In this document: piece by piece, positions 1,331 to 5,518 of the stretch
How positions within the stretch are numbered: the first letter of the stretch is position 1
How the letters are laid out: each line of letters starts with the position of its first letter
Virus record (IMG/VR): IMGVR_UViG_2529292720_000008
Origin: a virus
Taxonomy: Duplodnaviria > Heunggongvirae > Uroviricota > Caudoviricetes
DNA length: 5,912 bases
Direction: 5' to 3' (one strand)
The notes under the pieces: model-generated
What the model was told of the DNA's origin: nothing
Seen by the model: the letters and a program-made list of their open reading frames with translations, nothing else
The model's database searches: none
Program-made: the position numbers and the translations under genes

Positions 1331-1519
1331 GTGTTAAGCACAGATCGCTTTATACGTGAAAAAGAATGTCAGCAACTTACAGGCCTGAGCCGTTCATGTC
1401 GGTACCGCCTGGAAAAAACCGGACAATTCCCATCACGGCGTAAGCTCGGCGGTCGTTCCGTTGGCTGGTCTTTATCCGAAGTTCTGGCATGGAAGGAAAG
1501 CTGCGAGGCAGTTCACTAA
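1331..1519 (+). CDS. alpA: AlpA-family (Phage_AlpA / MerR-like HTH) transcriptional regulator or excision activator, 62 aa
   Basis: Translation VLSTDRFIREKECQQLTGLSRSCRYRLEKTGQFPSRRKLGGRSVGWSLSEVLAWKE matches the AlpA pattern (TG-x-SR-x-x-Y ... FP ... LG-x-RSVGW ... E-x-x-x-W). GTG start at 1331 has a strong Shine-Dalgarno AAAGGGGGAA at 1319-1328. The in-frame ATG at 1163 lacks an RBS and would add a non-homologous 56-aa extension. Confidence 0.8.
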   Translation: MLSTDRFIREKECQQLTGLSRSCRYRLEKTGQFPSRRKLGGRSVGWSLSEVLAWKESCEAVH

Positions 1520-1571: not shown

Positions 1572-2047
1572 ATGAATACTGGATATTCTCCCGAACAAGG
1601 GCGGGGCTTCGTTCGTCCTGAAAAACAGAATCTGCAAAATTTTGCCGAAATTATTCCGGTTATTTCCGGCCTTACTGGCGGGAGTGAAACCAATATTGTT
1701 AACGCCAGAGCGTTGCAGATGTTTGATGATAAAAAGGGAGTAAATTTAACTTACACCCCTGACGGCAATCAGAATATGAGCATTATCTCTGAGTCAGGTT
1801 TCTACAAACTAATAAAAACAAAAAGCGCCCCGTTGCCGGAGCGCCTTTGTGAACAATTAACCTACTGCGCAAAAAATGAATCTGAGCAGTGGGATTATAT
1901 CAACCGTGTGGCGAAGCGCCACAATTGCCGGATAACAGGCAAAACAAAGGCCACCCGCTACGGTGGCCCCTCGACACAAGCTACACGTTATCCCCAACGC
2001 ATGAGCATCACCAACAATGCCACATTTGCGGCTGGTGGGCAATGTGA
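1572..2047 (+). other. Possible coding region of uncertain status (start of a 470-codon stop-free frame); may be a decayed gene or a frameshifted remnant
   Basis: ATG at 1572 opens a frame whose first ~120 codons look protein-like (including an SESGFYKLI segment that faintly recalls the E-x-G-L-Y-x-L-I core of Bro-N/antirepressor proteins, from memory). There is no in-frame stop until 2984, and the middle of the frame (2050-2580) is Ser/Cys/Arg-rich, antisense-like translation. No boundary can be supported. Confidence 0.2.
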
Positions 2048-2221
2048 TCAGTCAGATTTGGTTCGTTCCAAGGTTTGCAACGAGAGCTTTTTCCTGTGCT
2101 CTTTAAGGAATTTCTCAAGAGCAAAAGCACATGGCGCGAATCTTTCTGATTCATGCTCTATCTTTCTGCGCCGTCTTTTCCGTGCCGGTGATAATGTTTT
2201 GGTCAATTCTTTATCGGTCAT
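2048..2221 (-). CDS. Small basic hypothetical protein (57 aa from the second ATG; the track start at 2236 gives 62 aa)
   Basis: Minus-strand ORF with charged, protein-like composition (MTDKELTKTLSPARKRRRRKIEHESERF...), in contrast to the junk-like plus-frame translation over the same DNA. AGGA lies 7 nt upstream of the second ATG. It sits directly downstream of the leftward RHH-like gene. No family recognised. Confidence 0.25.
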   Translation of the reverse strand: MTDKELTKTLSPARKRRRRKIEHESERFAPCAFALEKFLKEHRKKLSLQTLERTKSD

Positions 2222-2278
2222 TGTGTTGTCCTGCATAGCAATGCGCCGTAATACCTTACACCACGGCGCTGGTGATGG

Positions 2279-2551
2279 TCACTCCTGCTCTTTGGCCTTG
2301 CGACGCTGGAGTTCTTCACGCGCGACGGTGATGAGTTGCCCGATCTCCTCGGCTGCTTTGACTCCGATTTTTTCCACCTGCGCCAGTGCATCGAGCGAAG
2401 AAACCAGGGGATTTTCTCCGCTTCCTTCTGCCTGGCGGCGGGCGATCTCACCGCGAACGGCTGTAATCACGAAAGCGGCTATTGTTTCCCCTTCCGTTTT
2501 CGAATTTTCCATTTCCTCGATTACATCATGGGGGAAGCGGATATTTTTCAT
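2279..2551 (-). CDS. Putative ribbon-helix-helix-like DNA-binding protein, candidate repressor of the divergent rightward operon (90 aa; alternative start at 2584 gives 101 aa)
   Basis: Minus-strand ORF whose N-terminus (MKNIRFPHDVIEEMENSKTEGETIAAFVITAVRGEIARRQ) fits a beta-strand / helix / turn / helix RHH layout, with a helical charged C-terminus. The overlapping plus-frame translation is low-complexity. It is transcribed away from the palindrome-rich region at 2585-2780. The fold call comes from pattern only. Confidence 0.45.
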   Translation of the reverse strand: MKNIRFPHDVIEEMENSKTEGETIAAFVITAVRGEIARRQAEGSGENPLVSSLDALAQVEKIGVKAAEEIGQLITVAREELQRRKAKEQE

Positions 2552-2605
2552 TTGCGATCTGCTGTTGATATTTCCTGTTGCCATCAGAATGTCCGGTTAT
2601 TTTGA

Positions 2606-2709
2606 GGTGTGCATACATTACACCAAAAGGTGTGTAAATAAAACACTTGACACTGTAGCGCACTTAAATTTAATCTGTACACACACCAATGATTGTGGTG
2701 TATGTACAG
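2606..2709. promoter_or_regulatory. Divergent control region: rightward sigma70-like promoter (-35 TTGACA 2647-2652, 16-bp spacer, -10 TTTAAT 2669-2674) flanked by two palindromes built from GGTGTG/CACACC half-sites
   Basis: Consensus -35 hexamer and a 5/6 -10 hexamer at correct spacing. Upstream inverted repeat ACACC-aaaa-GGTGT at 2620-2633. Downstream 14-bp-arm inverted repeat CTGTACACACACCA (2675-2688) / TGGTGTATGTACAG (2696-2709) with one mismatch, overlapping the predicted transcription start. Further GGTGTG copies at 2606 and 2629. Confidence 0.55.
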
Positions 2710-2780
2710 CAAAGCCCCGCAGTGCTGGAACACATGCAGGGCTTCTAACCACCAACGATAGCGAAAGTATCGAGGTAGCT

Positions 2781-2984
2781 ATGAGAAATTATACCAGACA
2801 CCCGCAAGGGCGGGACTCGTACAACCTGAATAAATACATCTGGCGTTTTATCGCCCTGAGCACGGCACAACCGCGCGTGATTACCATTGAGGCCACCAGC
2901 GAACAGGAAGCGCGTCAGCAATCTCCTGATGGCTGCGTGATGGTATTCGCTGCCCGTATTCGCCAGGGGGAACACCATGATTAA
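2781..2984 (+). CDS. Icd-like small protein (host cell division inhibitor Icd-like family, as commonly annotated in P4-like prophages), 67 aa
   Basis: ATG at 2781 preceded by GAGGT at 2772-2776. Translation MRNYTRHPQGRDSYNLNKYIWRFIALSTAQPRVITIEATSEQEARQQSPDGCVMVFAARIRQGE fits my recollection of the Icd-like pattern (W-x-F-x-A-x-S ... SE-x-EAR ... FAAR). First gene downstream of the promoter; the stop overlaps the next start. Confidence 0.55.
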   Translation: MRNYTRHPQGRDSYNLNKYIWRFIALSTAQPRVITIEATSEQEARQQSPDGCVMVFAARIRQGEHHD

Positions 2985-3186
2985 CCTGTCACTTACCGAC
3001 CTTAACCGCGTTCAGTTTCGTGAGAAATTTACCGGGCAGCTACTGGTCAATGTGGATAAAGGTCGCGTGGTGTGTAATTACCACCTGCCAGATGAAGCCA
3101 TTGTCGCAACAAGGGAATCATTACAGGAACTCGCAGAACGTGCCGGAATGATTAACGCGAATATTCAGGGGGTGAGCCATGCATAA
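2977..3186 (+). CDS. Uncharacterised small protein, 69 aa; paralog of the next gene
   Basis: ATG at 2977 with SD GGGGG at 2966-2970; start overlaps the upstream stop (ATGATTAA). Shares an alignable core with the next ORF (FTGQLLVNVDKGRVVCNYHL versus YTGRVLVYLEKGRVKCQCRL, and ...AERAGM versus ...TKSGV). Confidence 0.6.
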   Translation: MINLSLTDLNRVQFREKFTGQLLVNVDKGRVVCNYHLPDEAIVATRESLQELAERAGMINANIQGVSHA

Positions 3187-3391
3187 TCATGAAACGCACT
3201 TACCTGTAGTGCTGAATGTGCCATCAGATTATACGGGGCGCGTACTGGTGTATCTGGAAAAAGGCCGGGTTAAATGTCAGTGCCGTTTAATGGAAAACGA
3301 ATTTATTAGCACTCTTGCGGGATTTTCTGAAATGCTCACTAAATCGGGTGTTAGTGCAGACCAGTTACGCGGGGGCGATTATGCGAAATAA
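3179..3391 (+). CDS. Uncharacterised small protein, 70 aa; tandem paralog of the 2977-3186 gene
   Basis: ATG at 3179 with SD GGGGGG at 3166-3171; overlaps the upstream stop (ATGcaTAA). About one third identity to the preceding protein when aligned by eye, including conserved TG, KGRV and Cys positions. Confidence 0.6.
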   Translation: MHNHETHLPVVLNVPSDYTGRVLVYLEKGRVKCQCRLMENEFISTLAGFSEMLTKSGVSADQLRGGDYAK

Positions 3392-3599
3392 ACATGATAT
3401 TGAAGACCTGGCATTTGAAGCCCTGCACTCTGCGAAAAAAATCAGGGAAGTCGTCAATATGTGGATGAACAGCCTTAGCACCGATGAATCCGATAGCAGA
3501 GAGGAAATTCTTATTTCTTTGTTGTTAGACCTGGCAAATACACAGGTTTCTCTGACATCTGATATTGAACTCGCCGCTAAAAATCTGCCTCTGGAGTAA
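3381..3599 (+). CDS. Uncharacterised small acidic, predicted helical protein, 72 aa
   Basis: ATG at 3381 with SD GGGGG at 3371-3375; 11-nt overlap with the upstream gene. The ORF-track start at 3315 lies inside the upstream gene and lacks an RBS. No family recognised. Confidence 0.5.
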   Translation: MRNKHDIEDLAFEALHSAKKIREVVNMWMNSLSTDESDSREEILISLLLDLANTQVSLTSDIELAAKNLPLE

Positions 3600-3605
3600 A
3601 AAAAC

Positions 3606-3905
3606 ATGAAACAGAAAAATTCTGGCTTTACTGCCAGTGGTCTCCCTCGGCCTGAAATCCGCCCCGGTGATATTTTCCGGGATAACTACGGTGGCACGGT
3701 AACGATTAAAAGCGTGGCGGGGCGGTGCGTTACTTACCGCCGTGATGGGTACGGCTATGACTGCGTGATGCCTGCTTATCAGTTCCGGCGTGATTTTTCA
3801 CTGATACAGGCCACACCACGCAAACAGCCCACCAGCAACGCAAAGGCACGGGCAAATATTCAGAAAATGAAAAACATGATTAACGCATTCAGGGGCAAAA
3901 AATGA
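3606..3905 (+). CDS. Uncharacterised small basic protein, 99 aa, translationally coupled to rep
   Basis: ATG at 3606 with GGAGT upstream; its stop overlaps the rep start (ATGA at 3902-3905). Gly/Arg/Tyr-rich core (GDIFRDNYGGTVTIKSVAGRCVTYRRDGYGYDCVMPAYQFRRDF) suggests a small beta-rich domain. No family recognised. Confidence 0.5.
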   Translation: MKQKNSGFTASGLPRPEIRPGDIFRDNYGGTVTIKSVAGRCVTYRRDGYGYDCVMPAYQFRRDFSLIQATPRKQPTSNAKARANIQKMKNMINAFRGKK

Positions 3906-5317
3906 AACTGGCACCGAACTTAAAAAAACAGCCACACGACAAAATGACCGAAGTCATTATTTTTGCGGGTAGTGATGCCTGGGCGCACGCGAAACAGTGG
4001 CAGGAACAGGACGGGCGACTTGCTGGTGATAACGTCCCGCCTGTATGGCTGGGAGACAGCCAGCTTGACGAACTGGCAGACCTGAAAATTATCGACGATG
4101 GTCGCTATTGTGTCCGGCTGTACAAGGCAGGCCACATCAAGCCGTCAAATATTAATGCTATCGGGCAAAAGCTGGCGGCGGCAGGTGTACGGGATGCGAA
4201 TTATTACCCTGATGGAATGCACAGCCAGAAGCTGGAGAACTGGCACGACTACCTGCAACGGATCCGCGAACAGGCAGAGCGCGGGGAAATACTTACTGAC
4301 GAGCAATACAGCCAGCGAAAAACCACGCTACCAATGAGCATTGGATCTGCAGGGTACGACACACAGCTTGATTATGTCGTTAAGGGCGTGATTCCGGCTA
4401 ATTCATTGTGCAGCACATACGGCGCGAGCGGTTCCTATAAATCGTTCCTCGCGTGTTCCTGGGCGTGTCATGTTGCCACTGGCCGTCACTGGGGAGGCCG
4501 CAGGGTGGCGCATGGTTCGGTGATGTATGTTGTCGGTGAAGGTGGCATTGGTGTCCCCCGCCGTATCAAGGCATGGGAAATCGTTAATGATGAACGGGTG
4601 GAAAATCTGTACCTGGTAAACCGCCCGATTTTTCCGGCAGTCCCGCTTGATGTTGATGAAATGGTCATCGCTTCCCGCCAGGTTGAACGGGAAACGGGTA
4701 AACCGGTACGCATGATTATTCTTGATACGCTGGCGCGTTGCTTTGGCGGTAATGATGAAAATGACGCGCGGGATATGGGGGCGTTTATCCGTGGATGTGA
4801 CGAACTGAAACGCCGCACAGGGGCCACGGTGCTGGTGGTTCACCATTCCGGCAAGGATGAAACAAAGGGGGCGCGTGGTTCCAGTGCATTTCGTGCATCT
4901 CTGGACGCTGAATACCGTATTCGCCGTGAAGGTGCAGACAGTGAAGCCCTGGTTATCTCCTGCACAAAAATGAAGGACGCGGAGGAACTGAAAGAGGCCG
5001 CATACGATTTACGTGTGGTGGAGCTTTTTACCGACACTGACGGGGAGTTAATCACGTCGCTGGTTGTTGTGGATAAGCCGCGCCCACCCGTTGAACTGGA
5101 GCGCATCGAGGAAGCCGGGAACAAGACGGAGAATCATGCCGCGCTATGGGGCTGTATCCGTTCACGCACACAGCGCGGAGATAAATGCACTATTCCGTTG
5201 TTGCGCGATGATATGAAAAAGCTGGGGTATGAGATGAAACACTTCCGGCGCTGGCTGTACAAGCTGGAAGGTGATGGCGTTATTGCTATTGACGGTGATG
5301 ACGTGCGCCCACTGTAA
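3902..5317 (+). CDS. rep: Replication protein: RepA-like / DnaB-like RecA-fold ATPase (AAA_25-type) with an uncharacterised N-terminal ~150-aa domain, 471 aa
   Basis: Walker A GASGSYKS at nt 4421-4444, Walker B-like hydrophobic stretch with Asp (RMIILDTLA, around nt 4709-4735), and the VLVVHHSGKDETKGARGSSA motif typical of RepA-like helicase/ATPase cores. Ends immediately upstream of an iteron cluster. The alternative start at the MTEV Met (nt 3944) cannot be excluded. Confidence 0.85.
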   Translation: MKLAPNLKKQPHDKMTEVIIFAGSDAWAHAKQWQEQDGRLAGDNVPPVWLGDSQLDELADLKIIDDGRYCVRLYKAGHIKPSNINAIGQKLAAAGVRDANYYPDGMHSQKLENWHDYLQRIREQAERGEILTDEQYSQRKTTLPMSIGSAGYDTQLDYVVKGVIPANSLCSTYGASGSYKSFLACSWACHVATGRHWGGRRVAHGSVMYVVGEGGIGVPRRIKAWEIVNDERVENLYLVNRPIFPAVPLDVDEMVIASRQVERETGKPVRMIILDTLARCFGGNDENDARDMGAFIRGCDELKRRTGATVLVVHHSGKDETKGARGSSAFRASLDAEYRIRREGADSEALVISCTKMKDAEELKEAAYDLRVVELFTDTDGELITSLVVVDKPRPPVELERIEEAGNKTENHAALWGCIRSRTQRGDKCTIPLLRDDMKKLGYEMKHFRRWLYKLEGDGVIAIDGDDVRPL

Positions 5318-5518
5318 AAAGTGGGTAGTAAAAGTGGGGAGTGTGGGGAATTTAACAAAATTGAAACGTGATTCCCCACTTTCCCACCTGTATATACCCC
5401 AAAAAGTGGGGAATAAAAAACACATTGAAAAACATCACGTTAGAATCACAAAAAAAAGAAGTGGGGAGACGTTGGGTAATTTCAAAAAGTGGGTAGTAAA
5501 AGTGGGGAGCAGTGAGGA
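5316..5518. repeat. Iteron cluster, putative origin of replication: at least 8 copies of AGTGGGGA-like 8-mers in both orientations, a 26-bp perfect direct repeat (5316-5341 and 5484-5509), and an A-rich tract
   Basis: Read directly: AAAAAGTGGGTAGTAAAAGTGGGGAG occurs twice. Additional GTGGGGA / TCCCCAC copies at 5334-5340, 5342-5349, 5373-5380 (inverted), 5381-5388 (inverted variant), 5405-5412 and 5461-5467. A-rich segment at 5411-5460. Position right after rep fits a rep-ori arrangement. Confidence 0.7.

What the first reader, a model, noticed from the sequence alone, without database searches (positions are those of the whole stretch)
2977..3391. Tandem paralogous ~70-aa proteins of unknown function at the head of the rep operon
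Two adjacent genes encode clearly homologous small proteins (shared TG-x-x-LV-x-x-KGRV-x-C core). Each has its own GGGGG Shine-Dalgarno and an overlapping stop/start junction, indicating a duplicated cassette. I do not recognise the family. Small early proteins in satellites often act on helper-phage or host targets (derepression, capsid redirection, interference), so a duplicated, diverged pair is a plausible place for a specificity-determining function.
Basis: partly seen in the sequence, partly recalled or inferred. Interest (0 to 1): 0.6.

Follow-up and report, generated by a model that had tools for sequence, protein, structure and literature searches.

The report
Two antirepressor-family genes in a satellite
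The two small adjacent genes are real, distantly related copies of a known family of phage "antirepressors" (FsoA of Salmonella phage Fels-1, Rem of the E. coli Qin prophage), carried here by a phage-parasitic island, so they most likely switch on resident prophages by binding their repressors.

Summary
Confirmed: 2977-3186 (69 aa, ORF-A) and 3179-3391 (70 aa, ORF-B) are homologous (29% identity, E 3e-9), and both evolve under purifying selection (dN/dS about 0.2).

The window is an EcCICFT073-type phage-inducible chromosomal island (PICI). Gene order is int, alpA, Icd-like, A, B, C, DUF4222, repA, iteron ori.

The family is not unknown. Both proteins fall in phrog_340, which also contains Fels-1 FsoA and Qin Rem. 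ORF-B is 39% identical to FsoA (E 3e-13) and ORF-A 32% (E 2e-8). A profile-profile comparison of the family with Rem gives probability 95%.

FsoA and Rem are experimentally shown antirepressors. They inactivate short, non-cleavable CI-like repressors (GtgR, DicA). So A and B are most likely satellite-borne antirepressors made from the AlpA-activated early operon. They sit in the slot that the derepression gene epsilon occupies in phage P4.

They are not a local duplication. B is closer to phage members than to A. A-only, B-only, fused two-domain and three-domain versions exist. Only 5 of 5426 complete E. coli genomes carry this A+B pair.

The GGGGG/ATG...TAA junction occurs at every cassette of a shuffling array, related or not.

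Targets are untested. This is a new member of a known kind, of moderate interest.

The parts
2977..3186 (+). ORF-A, 69 aa. FsoA/Rem-family (phrog_340) small antirepressor-like protein, and orthologue of the N-terminal domain of the two-domain fused versions.
   Evidence: ORF. phrog_340 E 5e-23. Family HMM E 2e-23, and 32% identity to FsoA over 41 aa, E 2e-8. 71% identity to the N-domain of fusion P0018. dN/dS 0.22. pI 6.0.
3179..3391 (+). ORF-B, 70 aa. Second FsoA/Rem-family antirepressor-like protein, from a different subfamily.
   Evidence: ORF. phrog_340 E 2e-20. Family HMM E 1e-30, and 39% identity to FsoA over 59 aa, E 3e-13. 33% identity to Rem over 42 aa. dN/dS 0.21. pI 6.8.
2964..2984 (+). 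Icd-like/ORF-A junction: GGGGG Shine-Dalgarno, ATG 2977, and the upstream stop TAA at 2982-2984 (8-nt overlap).
   Evidence: Sequence. The same junction type occurs at all cassettes of related islands.
3166..3186 (+). ORF-A/ORF-B junction: GGGGG, ATG 3179, TAA 3184-3186 (8-nt overlap). Implies translational coupling.
   Evidence: Sequence.
3368..3391 (+). ORF-B/ORF-C junction: GGGGG, ATG 3381, TAA 3389-3391 (11-nt overlap).
   Evidence: Sequence. The ORF-C start is as annotated in RefSeq.
2781..2984 (+). Icd-like gene (67 aa) immediately upstream. It is the counterpart of the Icd-like C-terminus of the P4 'cI ORF137' that precedes epsilon.
   Evidence: NF033153 E 1e-19. P4 ORF137 hits NF033153 at E 8e-21.
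3381..3599 (+). ORF-C, 72 aa, acidic (pI 4.6). An unrelated small cassette gene of the same array.
   Evidence: phrog_2196 E 2e-5. pI. Recurs as the 'C' cassette.
3606..3905 (+). DUF4222 gene, the conserved right border of the cassette array.
   Evidence: PF13973 E 7e-24. Present downstream of the array in 91 of 104 loci.
3902..5317 (+). RepA-type (AAA_25) replicase of the island, followed by iterons at 5316-5508.
   Evidence: PF13481 E 3e-44. Iterons.
1331..1519 (+). alpA, the activator of the island's early operon, in which A and B lie.
   Evidence: PF05930 E 1e-17. CDS as annotated. AlpA function in EcCICFT073 from PMC6092414.

Best explanation
ORF-A and ORF-B are two diverged members of the FsoA/Rem family of small phage antirepressors, carried by an EcCICFT073-type PICI.

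Inferred mechanism:
1. When the island's AlpA-activated early operon is transcribed, A and B are translated by coupling to the Icd-like gene.
2. Each binds a short, non-cleavable CI-like repressor (the DicA/RacR/GfoR/GtgR type) of a prophage resident in the same cell, probably two antirepressor domains per repressor dimer.
3. The repressor leaves its operator and that prophage, or prophage remnant, is derepressed.
4. Two paralogues give the island two repressor specificities.

The genes occupy the position that the helper-derepression gene epsilon has in satellite P4, so the likely benefit is recruitment or co-induction of helper or competitor prophages.

Shown: gene structure, homology, selection, genomic setting.
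Inferred: binding partner, stoichiometry, biological benefit.
For: (1) Family membership.
- Both ORFs hit phrog_340. FsoA (E 1e-26) and Rem (E 4e-21) hit the same PHROG.
- ORF-B vs FsoA: 39% over 59 aa, E 3e-13. ORF-A vs FsoA: 32% over 41 aa, E 2e-8.
- hhalign of the family alignment vs Rem: probability 95%, E 4e-8.
- An exhaustive HMM search seeded only with A/B-type sequences recovered FsoA-like representatives P0086 and P0087 (73-85% identical to FsoA) at E 1e-9 and 2e-8, and Rem-like P0126 at E 1e-4.
- A family member carries the precomputed label PF27490 'Rem'.

(2) Identity of the characterised proteins.
- Primers le154 and le162 of Lemire et al. encode MNSQQMM and EAGIRFEEISNVG, the two ends of Fels-1 STM0898.2n. 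This shows that this ORF is FsoA.

(3) Known function.
- GfoA, GftA and FsoA bind repressors, forming an apparent A2B2 complex, and the repressor dissociates from DNA (PMC3121763).
- Rem derepresses dicBp 165-fold (PMC10448788).

(4) Setting.
- FsoA lies in the Fels-1 early-left operon, as do family members in Serratia, Klebsiella and E. coli phages.
- A and B lie in the island's early operon, which AlpA activates in EcCICFT073 (PMC6092414).
- P4 has Icd-like, then epsilon with an 8-nt overlap, then small ORFs and the primase. The window has Icd-like, then A with an 8-nt overlap, then small ORFs and the replicase.

(5) Other support.
- The proteins are near-neutral or acidic (pI 6.0 and 6.8; family median 6.0), as expected for protein binders rather than DNA binders.
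- Natural two-domain fusions fit two domains per repressor dimer.
- dN/dS is about 0.2 for both.
Against: - No binding or derepression assay exists for A, B or any satellite-borne member.
- Identity to FsoA and Rem is only 28-39%.
- The known helpers of EcCICFT073 (lambda, phi80) have cleavable CI repressors, and AlpA is switched on only after the helper is already induced (PMC6092414). A role in helper induction is therefore not obviously needed.
- FsoA itself is dispensable for induction of its own phage (PMC3121763).
- Structure prediction was only moderately confident (pLDDT 58 and 72, pTM 0.38) and fold searches found nothing. There is no structural confirmation.
- A-only and B-only islands exist, so the pair is not an obligate unit.
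Confidence: 0.6

Rival explanations
1. A and B are FsoA/Rem-fold binders that have been retargeted. They would act on some other HTH regulator or host protein, such as the island's own regulators, host-takeover targets or anti-defence targets, rather than on prophage repressors.
For: - Only 28-39% identity to characterised members.
- The slot holds many unrelated small cassettes of unknown function, next to a cell-division-inhibitor-like gene.
- In phages the family sits among accessory early-left genes, many of which target host proteins.
Against: - Every member tested so far (FsoA, Rem; remotely GftA/GfoA) is an antirepressor (PMC3121763, PMC10448788).
- There is no hit in the defence/anti-defence library.
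- The core motifs are conserved with FsoA.
Confidence: 0.2
2. A and B are accessory replication factors of the island, such as loader, origin or primase cofactors, co-translated with the replicase.
For: - They always lie just upstream of DUF4222 and the replicase, and are translationally coupled.
- One family member (P0099) is fused to a CHC2 primase zinc ribbon.
Against: - The replicase type (RepA, D5_N/DUF5906, DUF927) swaps independently of which cassettes are present.
- Phage members lie in the early-left operon, away from the replication genes.
- The EcCICFT073 rep gene plus ori under an arabinose promoter replicates on its own (PMC6092414).
- Homologues have a different, demonstrated function.
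Confidence: 0.07
3. A and B are small DNA-binding regulators that control the island's own transcription.
For: - A beta-hairpin plus helix could in principle dimerise into a DNA-binding sheet.
- The TGR motif is conserved.
Against: - The proteins are near-neutral or acidic.
- No similarity to known DNA-binding families was found in Pfam, NCBIfam or the PDB.
- Characterised relatives act by binding proteins.
Confidence: 0.05
4. One or both genes are decaying passengers with no current function.
For: - Truncated and chimeric variants are common in databases.
- The A+B combination is rare.
Against: - dN/dS is about 0.2 for both.
- Reading frames are intact in all near-identical islands.
- SD and coupling signals are conserved.
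Confidence: 0.05

Closest known systems
FsoA, antirepressor of Salmonella prophage Fels-1 (STM0898.2n; Lemire, Figueroa-Bossi & Bossi 2011, PMC3121763)
   Same: - Same family: phrog_340. ORF-B is 39% identical and ORF-A 32%.
- Same size (about 70-78 aa).
- Encoded in an early operon that is expressed only once the element is induced.
- Acts, or is predicted to act, in trans on another element's repressor.
   Different: - FsoA is a single-copy gene of a complete temperate phage, under the control of that phage's CI-like repressor.
- A and B are two copies in a satellite under AlpA control.
- The target of FsoA (GtgR of Gifsy-2) is known. The targets of A and B are not.
Rem, antirepressor of DicA in the E. 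coli K-12 Qin cryptic prophage (Ragunathan et al. 2023, PMC10448788); Pfam PF27490 'Rem'
   Same: - Same PHROG and same core.
- hhalign probability 95%.
- 28-33% identity.
   Different: - Rem is 83 aa, with an extra N-terminal hairpin.
- It lies in the nin/late-regulatory region of a defective prophage.
- It is more distant from A and B than FsoA is.
GfoA/GftA/GfhA, LexA-controlled antirepressors of the Gifsy prophages
   Same: - The same kind of mechanism is proposed: a small protein binds the repressor in an apparent A2B2 complex, and the repressor leaves the DNA.
- Weak profile similarity: hhalign probability 40%, E 3e-4.
   Different: - Different PHROG (phrog_4847).
- Located in a dinI-antirepressor-irsA operon under LexA.
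- Homology to A and B is only suggestive.
Epsilon of satellite phage P4 (PF25738, derepression protein that inactivates the P2 C repressor)
   Same: - Same genomic slot: directly after the Icd-like reading frame with an 8-nt overlap, upstream of small ORFs and the primase/replicase.
- A satellite-encoded helper-derepression function.
   Different: No detectable sequence similarity, and a different Pfam family. This is an analogy, not homology.
Tum (phage 186) and Ant (P22) antirepressors
   Same: They are also proteins that inactivate phage repressors by binding, some with broad specificity (discussed in PMC3121763).
   Different: They are larger, unrelated proteins. No similarity was found here.

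Membership tests
FsoA/Rem small antirepressor family (phrog_340; Pfam PF27490 'Rem') | Significant sequence similarity to experimentally characterised members (FsoA, Rem) | tested here: met
   - ORF-B vs FsoA: E 3e-13. ORF-A vs FsoA: E 2e-8.
- All four proteins hit phrog_340 at E of 1e-20 or lower.
- hhalign of the family vs Rem: probability 95%.
- FsoA- and Rem-like representatives were retrieved by a profile built from A/B-type sequences only.
FsoA/Rem small antirepressor family (phrog_340; Pfam PF27490 'Rem') | Small single-domain protein (about 65-85 aa) with the conserved core F-T-G-R-hhhh-h-E-N-G-x-V ... L ... E-h-h-x-T-L ... F-x-E-h-A ... A-G | tested here: met
   Alignments and column statistics. 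AF2 predicts a beta-hairpin plus helix for each domain, at moderate confidence.
FsoA/Rem small antirepressor family (phrog_340; Pfam PF27490 'Rem') | Encoded outside the immunity region of a temperate element, in an operon expressed on induction | tested here: met
   A and B lie in the island's early operon downstream of alpA. AlpA activation of downstream genes is shown for EcCICFT073 only (PMC6092414). Expression of A and B themselves was not measured.
FsoA/Rem small antirepressor family (phrog_340; Pfam PF27490 'Rem') | Binds a short, non-cleavable CI-like repressor and releases it from its operator | not testable with these tools
   Requires reporter, pull-down or EMSA experiments, or multimer co-folding.
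P4 epsilon / 'Derepression' family (PF25738) | Sequence match to PF25738 or to P4 epsilon | tested here: not met
   No Pfam hit for A or B. BLASTP and HMM comparison against P4 epsilon are non-significant. Only the gene position is shared.
HicB-like antitoxin N-terminal domain | Profile similarity to the HicB N-domain | tested here: not met
   hhalign of the family vs E. coli HicB residues 1-69 gives probability 0.3%. The HicB sequence was verified against PDB entry 6HPB. No HicB Pfam hit in any of 48 members.
Bro-N / 'Bro network' domain-swapping proteins of PICI Bro zones | Presence of a Bro-N or related nuclease-like DNA-binding domain | tested here: not met
   A and B have no Bro-N domain. 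Only one distant family member (P0104) is a Bro-N fusion.
MORN / YwqK-like beta-hairpin repeat proteins | Multiple tandem hairpin repeats without the C-terminal helix | tested here: not met
   Long hits P0082, P0090, P0117, P0137 and P0139 match only profile positions of about 8-39, and do so repeatedly. A and B have one hairpin plus the helix.

The most novel reading that the evidence does not exclude
Gram-negative PICIs are not merely passive responders to helper induction. They would carry a recombining array of one to three FsoA/Rem-family antirepressor domains, separate or fused into two-domain 'clamps', in the P4-epsilon slot. With these they would actively derepress several heteroimmune resident prophages that have non-cleavable repressors. 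The cassette combination would set which prophages an island can summon as helpers or sabotage as competitors.
Probability: 0.3. Interest if true: 0.7.

Novelty: new member of a known kind. Interest (0 to 1): 0.5.

Why it matters
If A and B do inactivate prophage repressors, E. coli PICIs would have an active derepression arm like that of P4. Antirepressor-mediated "phage crosstalk" (Lemire et al. 2011) would then extend to satellites. An island could trigger or synchronise induction of prophages, including cryptic ones whose repressors hold back toxic genes (DicA/dicBF, RacR/ydaST). That would affect horizontal transfer, lysogen stability and cell fate.

The work also gives a functional label to a sizeable PHROG (phrog_340) that is listed as 'unknown function', and to hundreds of 'hypothetical protein' annotations in E. 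coli. It also shows a compact cassette array with uniform junctions, which is a convenient system for studying how satellites swap small effector genes.

Tried and rejected
- Pfam and NCBIfam scans of A, B and 48 family members gave no consistent hit. The local Pfam copy lacks PF27490.
- PADLOC: no hit.
- PDB sequence search returned only a chance match to an RNF4 hairpin.
- AF2 of ORF-A alone gave pLDDT 58. AF2 of the natural fusion P0143 gave pLDDT 72 and pTM 0.38, so the inter-domain packing is not reliable.
- The HicB-like fold idea was rejected by hhalign.
- Homology to P4 epsilon, ORF151 or ORF106 was rejected.
- tblastn of ORF-A against phage genomes found nothing. The phage members were found only with a more typical family member as query.
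- The genome-contig scan yielded only 2 loci; the first attempt failed for lack of a conserved stretch.
- Rfam found no C4/isrK-type immunity RNA, only a sub-threshold symR-like hit.
- My first AlpA query was one base out of frame, so the 'AlpA' labels are unreliable. This was corrected.
- Literature searches for DUF4222, Icd-like, phrog_340 and PF27490 found nothing about these genes. No paper in the library reports satellite-borne FsoA/Rem homologues.

Full report
**1. What is in the window**

The 5.9-kb window is the left half of an EcCICFT073-type phage-inducible chromosomal island (PICI) of E. coli. Its genes are:
- a tyrosine integrase (19-963, cut at the window edge);
- alpA (1331-1519);
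- a YlcI/YnfO-family gene on the minus strand (2279-2584);
- an Icd-like gene (2781-2984);
- ORF-A (2977-3186), ORF-B (3179-3391) and ORF-C (3381-3599);
- a DUF4222 gene (3606-3905);
- a RepA/AAA_25 replicase (3902-5317);
- six AAAAGTGGGGA iterons (5316-5508).

A 97%-identical island lies between abgR and smrA in E. coli 90-9280. It continues with a capsid homologue, a head-decoration homologue, an HTH gene and terS. That is the gene set described for EcCICFT073 (PMC6092414).

**2.

ORF-A (69 aa) and ORF-B (70 aa) align over 52 residues at 29% identity, E 3e-9. Both hit the same PHROG (phrog_340) at E 5e-23 and 2e-20. Each ATG is preceded by GGGGG at 5-6 nt and overlaps the previous stop by 8 nt.

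Among orthologues collected from related islands, the median pairwise dN/dS is 0.22 for A-type and 0.21 for B-type genes. Both are therefore maintained as protein-coding genes.

**3. The family is known**

Pfam (local copy), NCBIfam, PADLOC and the PDB gave nothing.

An exhaustive profile search of 1.84 billion representatives found only 90 proteins at E of 1e-3 or lower. Most are 60-90 aa proteins from Enterobacterales.

A context look-up for one of them (P0104) carried the precomputed label 'PF27490: Rem'. The E. coli K-12 Qin-prophage protein Rem (b1561) matches:
- my family HMM (E 5e-11);
- phrog_340 (E 4e-21);
- the family alignment by hhalign (probability 95%).

Ragunathan et al. (PMC10448788) showed that Rem relieves DicA repression of dicBp 165-fold. 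They had found Rem by iterated searches starting from the Salmonella antirepressors GfoA and FsoA.

The Fels-1 ORF STM0898.2n, which I had already found as a phage member of the family, is FsoA itself. Primers le154 and le162 of Lemire et al. encode its first seven and last thirteen residues. Against FsoA:
- phrog_340 scores E 1e-26;
- ORF-B is 39% identical over 59 aa (E 3e-13);
- ORF-A is 32% identical over 41 aa (E 2e-8).

FsoA-like representatives (P0086, P0087) had been retrieved by the profile built from A/B-type sequences alone.

GftA of Gifsy-2 (STM1020.1n, identified the same way) belongs to another PHROG. It shows only suggestive profile similarity (probability 40%).

**4. Mechanism, by homology**

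Lemire et al. (PMC3121763) showed the following:
- These small proteins bind short CI-like repressors that lack the RecA-cleavage site.
- The complex behaves as A2B2, and the repressor dissociates from its operator.
- Antirepressors cross-react with repressors of heteroimmune prophages.
- FsoA sits in the Fels-1 early-left operon, is dispensable for Fels-1 induction, and inactivates the Gifsy-2 repressor.
- Homologous repressors (DicA, RacR and others) are present in most E. coli genomes.

In other temperate phages the family is likewise a single gene in the early-left operon, between the repressor and xis/int.

In the island, A and B sit in the early operon that AlpA activates in EcCICFT073. 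They directly follow the Icd-like gene. In P4 the Icd-like reading frame is directly followed, with the same 8-nt overlap, by epsilon, the P2-derepression gene. Small ORFs and the primase come next. A and B have no sequence similarity to epsilon, so the resemblance is positional and functional only.

A and B are near-neutral or acidic (pI 6.0 and 6.8; family median 6.0), which fits protein binders.

I therefore propose that A and B are satellite-borne antirepressors that inactivate repressors of resident prophages. Binding partners, stoichiometry and benefit are inferred, not shown.

**5. Not a local duplication, but part of a cassette array**

I surveyed 104 non-redundant related loci: 2 from species-representative genomes and the rest from IMG/VR. 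They were retrieved by family peptide patterns, so the sample is biased.

The order Icd-like, small cassettes, DUF4222, replicase is conserved. Icd-like lies upstream in 88 loci and DUF4222 downstream in 91.

The slot in between holds one to three FsoA/Rem-type domains plus at least three unrelated small-gene families: X, Y, and C (which is ORF-C). There are at least 21 arrangements. Counted on the first 93 loci held (the window, call-8, context and phage loci plus the first pattern-scan loci, duplicates not removed), the domain architectures were:

| Architecture | Loci |
|---|---|
| Two-domain fusion followed by a single gene | 47 |
| One single gene | 35 |
| Two separate genes, as in the window | 7 |
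| Fusion only | 4 |

Further points:
- A-only and B-only islands both exist.
- In the CFT073-like island, X replaces A.
- Among 5426 complete E. coli genomes, 385 carry part of the A+B region but only 5 carry both genes together.
- A is the orthologue of the N-terminal domain of the fusions (71% identity). B is closer to phage members than to A.
- The replicase type (RepA, D5_N/DUF5906, DUF927) varies independently of the cassettes.
- Every cassette, related or not, begins with GG(G/A)GG, 5-7 nt, ATG, then an out-of-frame stop within 10 nt.
- Chimeric proteins joined at these junctions occur: P0154, P0150, P0060.

It may also act as a recombination site. The fused two-domain forms fit the reported ratio of two antirepressors per repressor dimer, but this is inference.

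**6. Structure**

AF2 predicts a beta-hairpin followed by a helix for each domain. pLDDT is about 80 within domains of the fusion, and pTM is 0.38, so the relative placement of the domains is unreliable. Column statistics suggest additional short strands on either side.

**7. Rivals**

- A retargeted binder acting on a non-repressor partner cannot be excluded (0.2).
- A replication-accessory role is unlikely. The replicases swap independently, phage members are not near replication genes, and EcCICFT073 rep plus ori suffices for replication.
- A DNA-binding regulator or a decaying gene is unlikely, given the charge, the selection signal and the homology.

**8. Verdict**

This is a new member of a known kind: FsoA/Rem antirepressors, here on a satellite. 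The paper library searched (7.7 million PMC papers plus bioRxiv) holds no report of satellite-borne members.

Interest is moderate (0.5). The result is readily testable and would give Gram-negative PICIs an active prophage-derepression function, but the function is not demonstrated.

Noticed in passing
window 1572-2984 (+), overlapping 2279-2584 (-) and 2048-2236 (-): A 470-aa open frame runs from just after alpA to the end of the Icd-like gene, and RefSeq annotates it whole as 'Icd-like protein'. Only its last 67 aa match the Icd-like model. It overlaps, antisense, a YlcI/YnfO-family gene and a 62-aa phrog_21027 ORF. Long stop-free frames ending in the Icd-like domain recur in most related islands. 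This recalls the nested Eta/Kil/cI arrangement of P4, whose 'cI ORF137' is Phage_ASH plus Icd-like.
   Followed up: partly
window 2675-2780 (-): There is a sub-threshold symR-like Rfam match (25 bits, E 0.14) at 2708-2780. Next to it is a 14-bp hairpin with a T-run at 2709-2675. Both are antisense to the leader of the Icd-like gene. This may be an antisense regulatory RNA, or it may be chance.
   Followed up: no
window 2965-3605 and loci L011-L117: The slot between the Icd-like and DUF4222 genes is a cassette array. It holds at least four unrelated small-gene families (Rem-like, X, Y, C) in at least 21 arrangements among 104 loci. All are joined by the same GG(G/A)GG-N5-7-ATG-NN(N)-stop junction. 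Chimeric proteins fused at these junctions occur (P0154 A+X, P0150 B+C, P0060/P0155 fusion+Y).
   Followed up: partly
window 3381-3599 (+): ORF-C is a 72-aa, strongly acidic (pI 4.6) predicted protein (phrog_2196, unknown function). It follows B with the same overlap junction and recurs as a cassette in many islands.
   Followed up: no
window 3902-5317 and loci L002, L007, L011-L117: The replicase downstream of the conserved DUF4222 gene is exchanged among three unrelated types: RepA/AAA_25, D5_N+DUF5906 and DUF927. The exchange is independent of the cassette content upstream.
   Followed up: partly
window 5316-5508: Six copies of the iteron AAAAGTGGGGA, arranged in two 26-nt blocks plus singles, begin at the repA stop codon. 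This is the island's probable replication origin, matching the iteron-flanked ori described for E. coli PICIs (PMC6092414).
   Followed up: partly
databases (phrog_340; RefSeq 'hypothetical protein' WP_001356034.1 and WP_000551492.1): PHROG 340 is labelled 'unknown function' although it contains the experimentally characterised antirepressors FsoA and Rem. RefSeq calls A and B hypothetical proteins. The annotations lag behind the literature.
   Followed up: yes
P0099 (L122, L123) and P0104 (L124): Rare fusions of the Rem-like domain exist. One is to a CHC2 primase-type zinc ribbon, in an AlpA-containing element. The other is to a Bro-N domain, upstream of a phage lysis cassette.
   Followed up: partly
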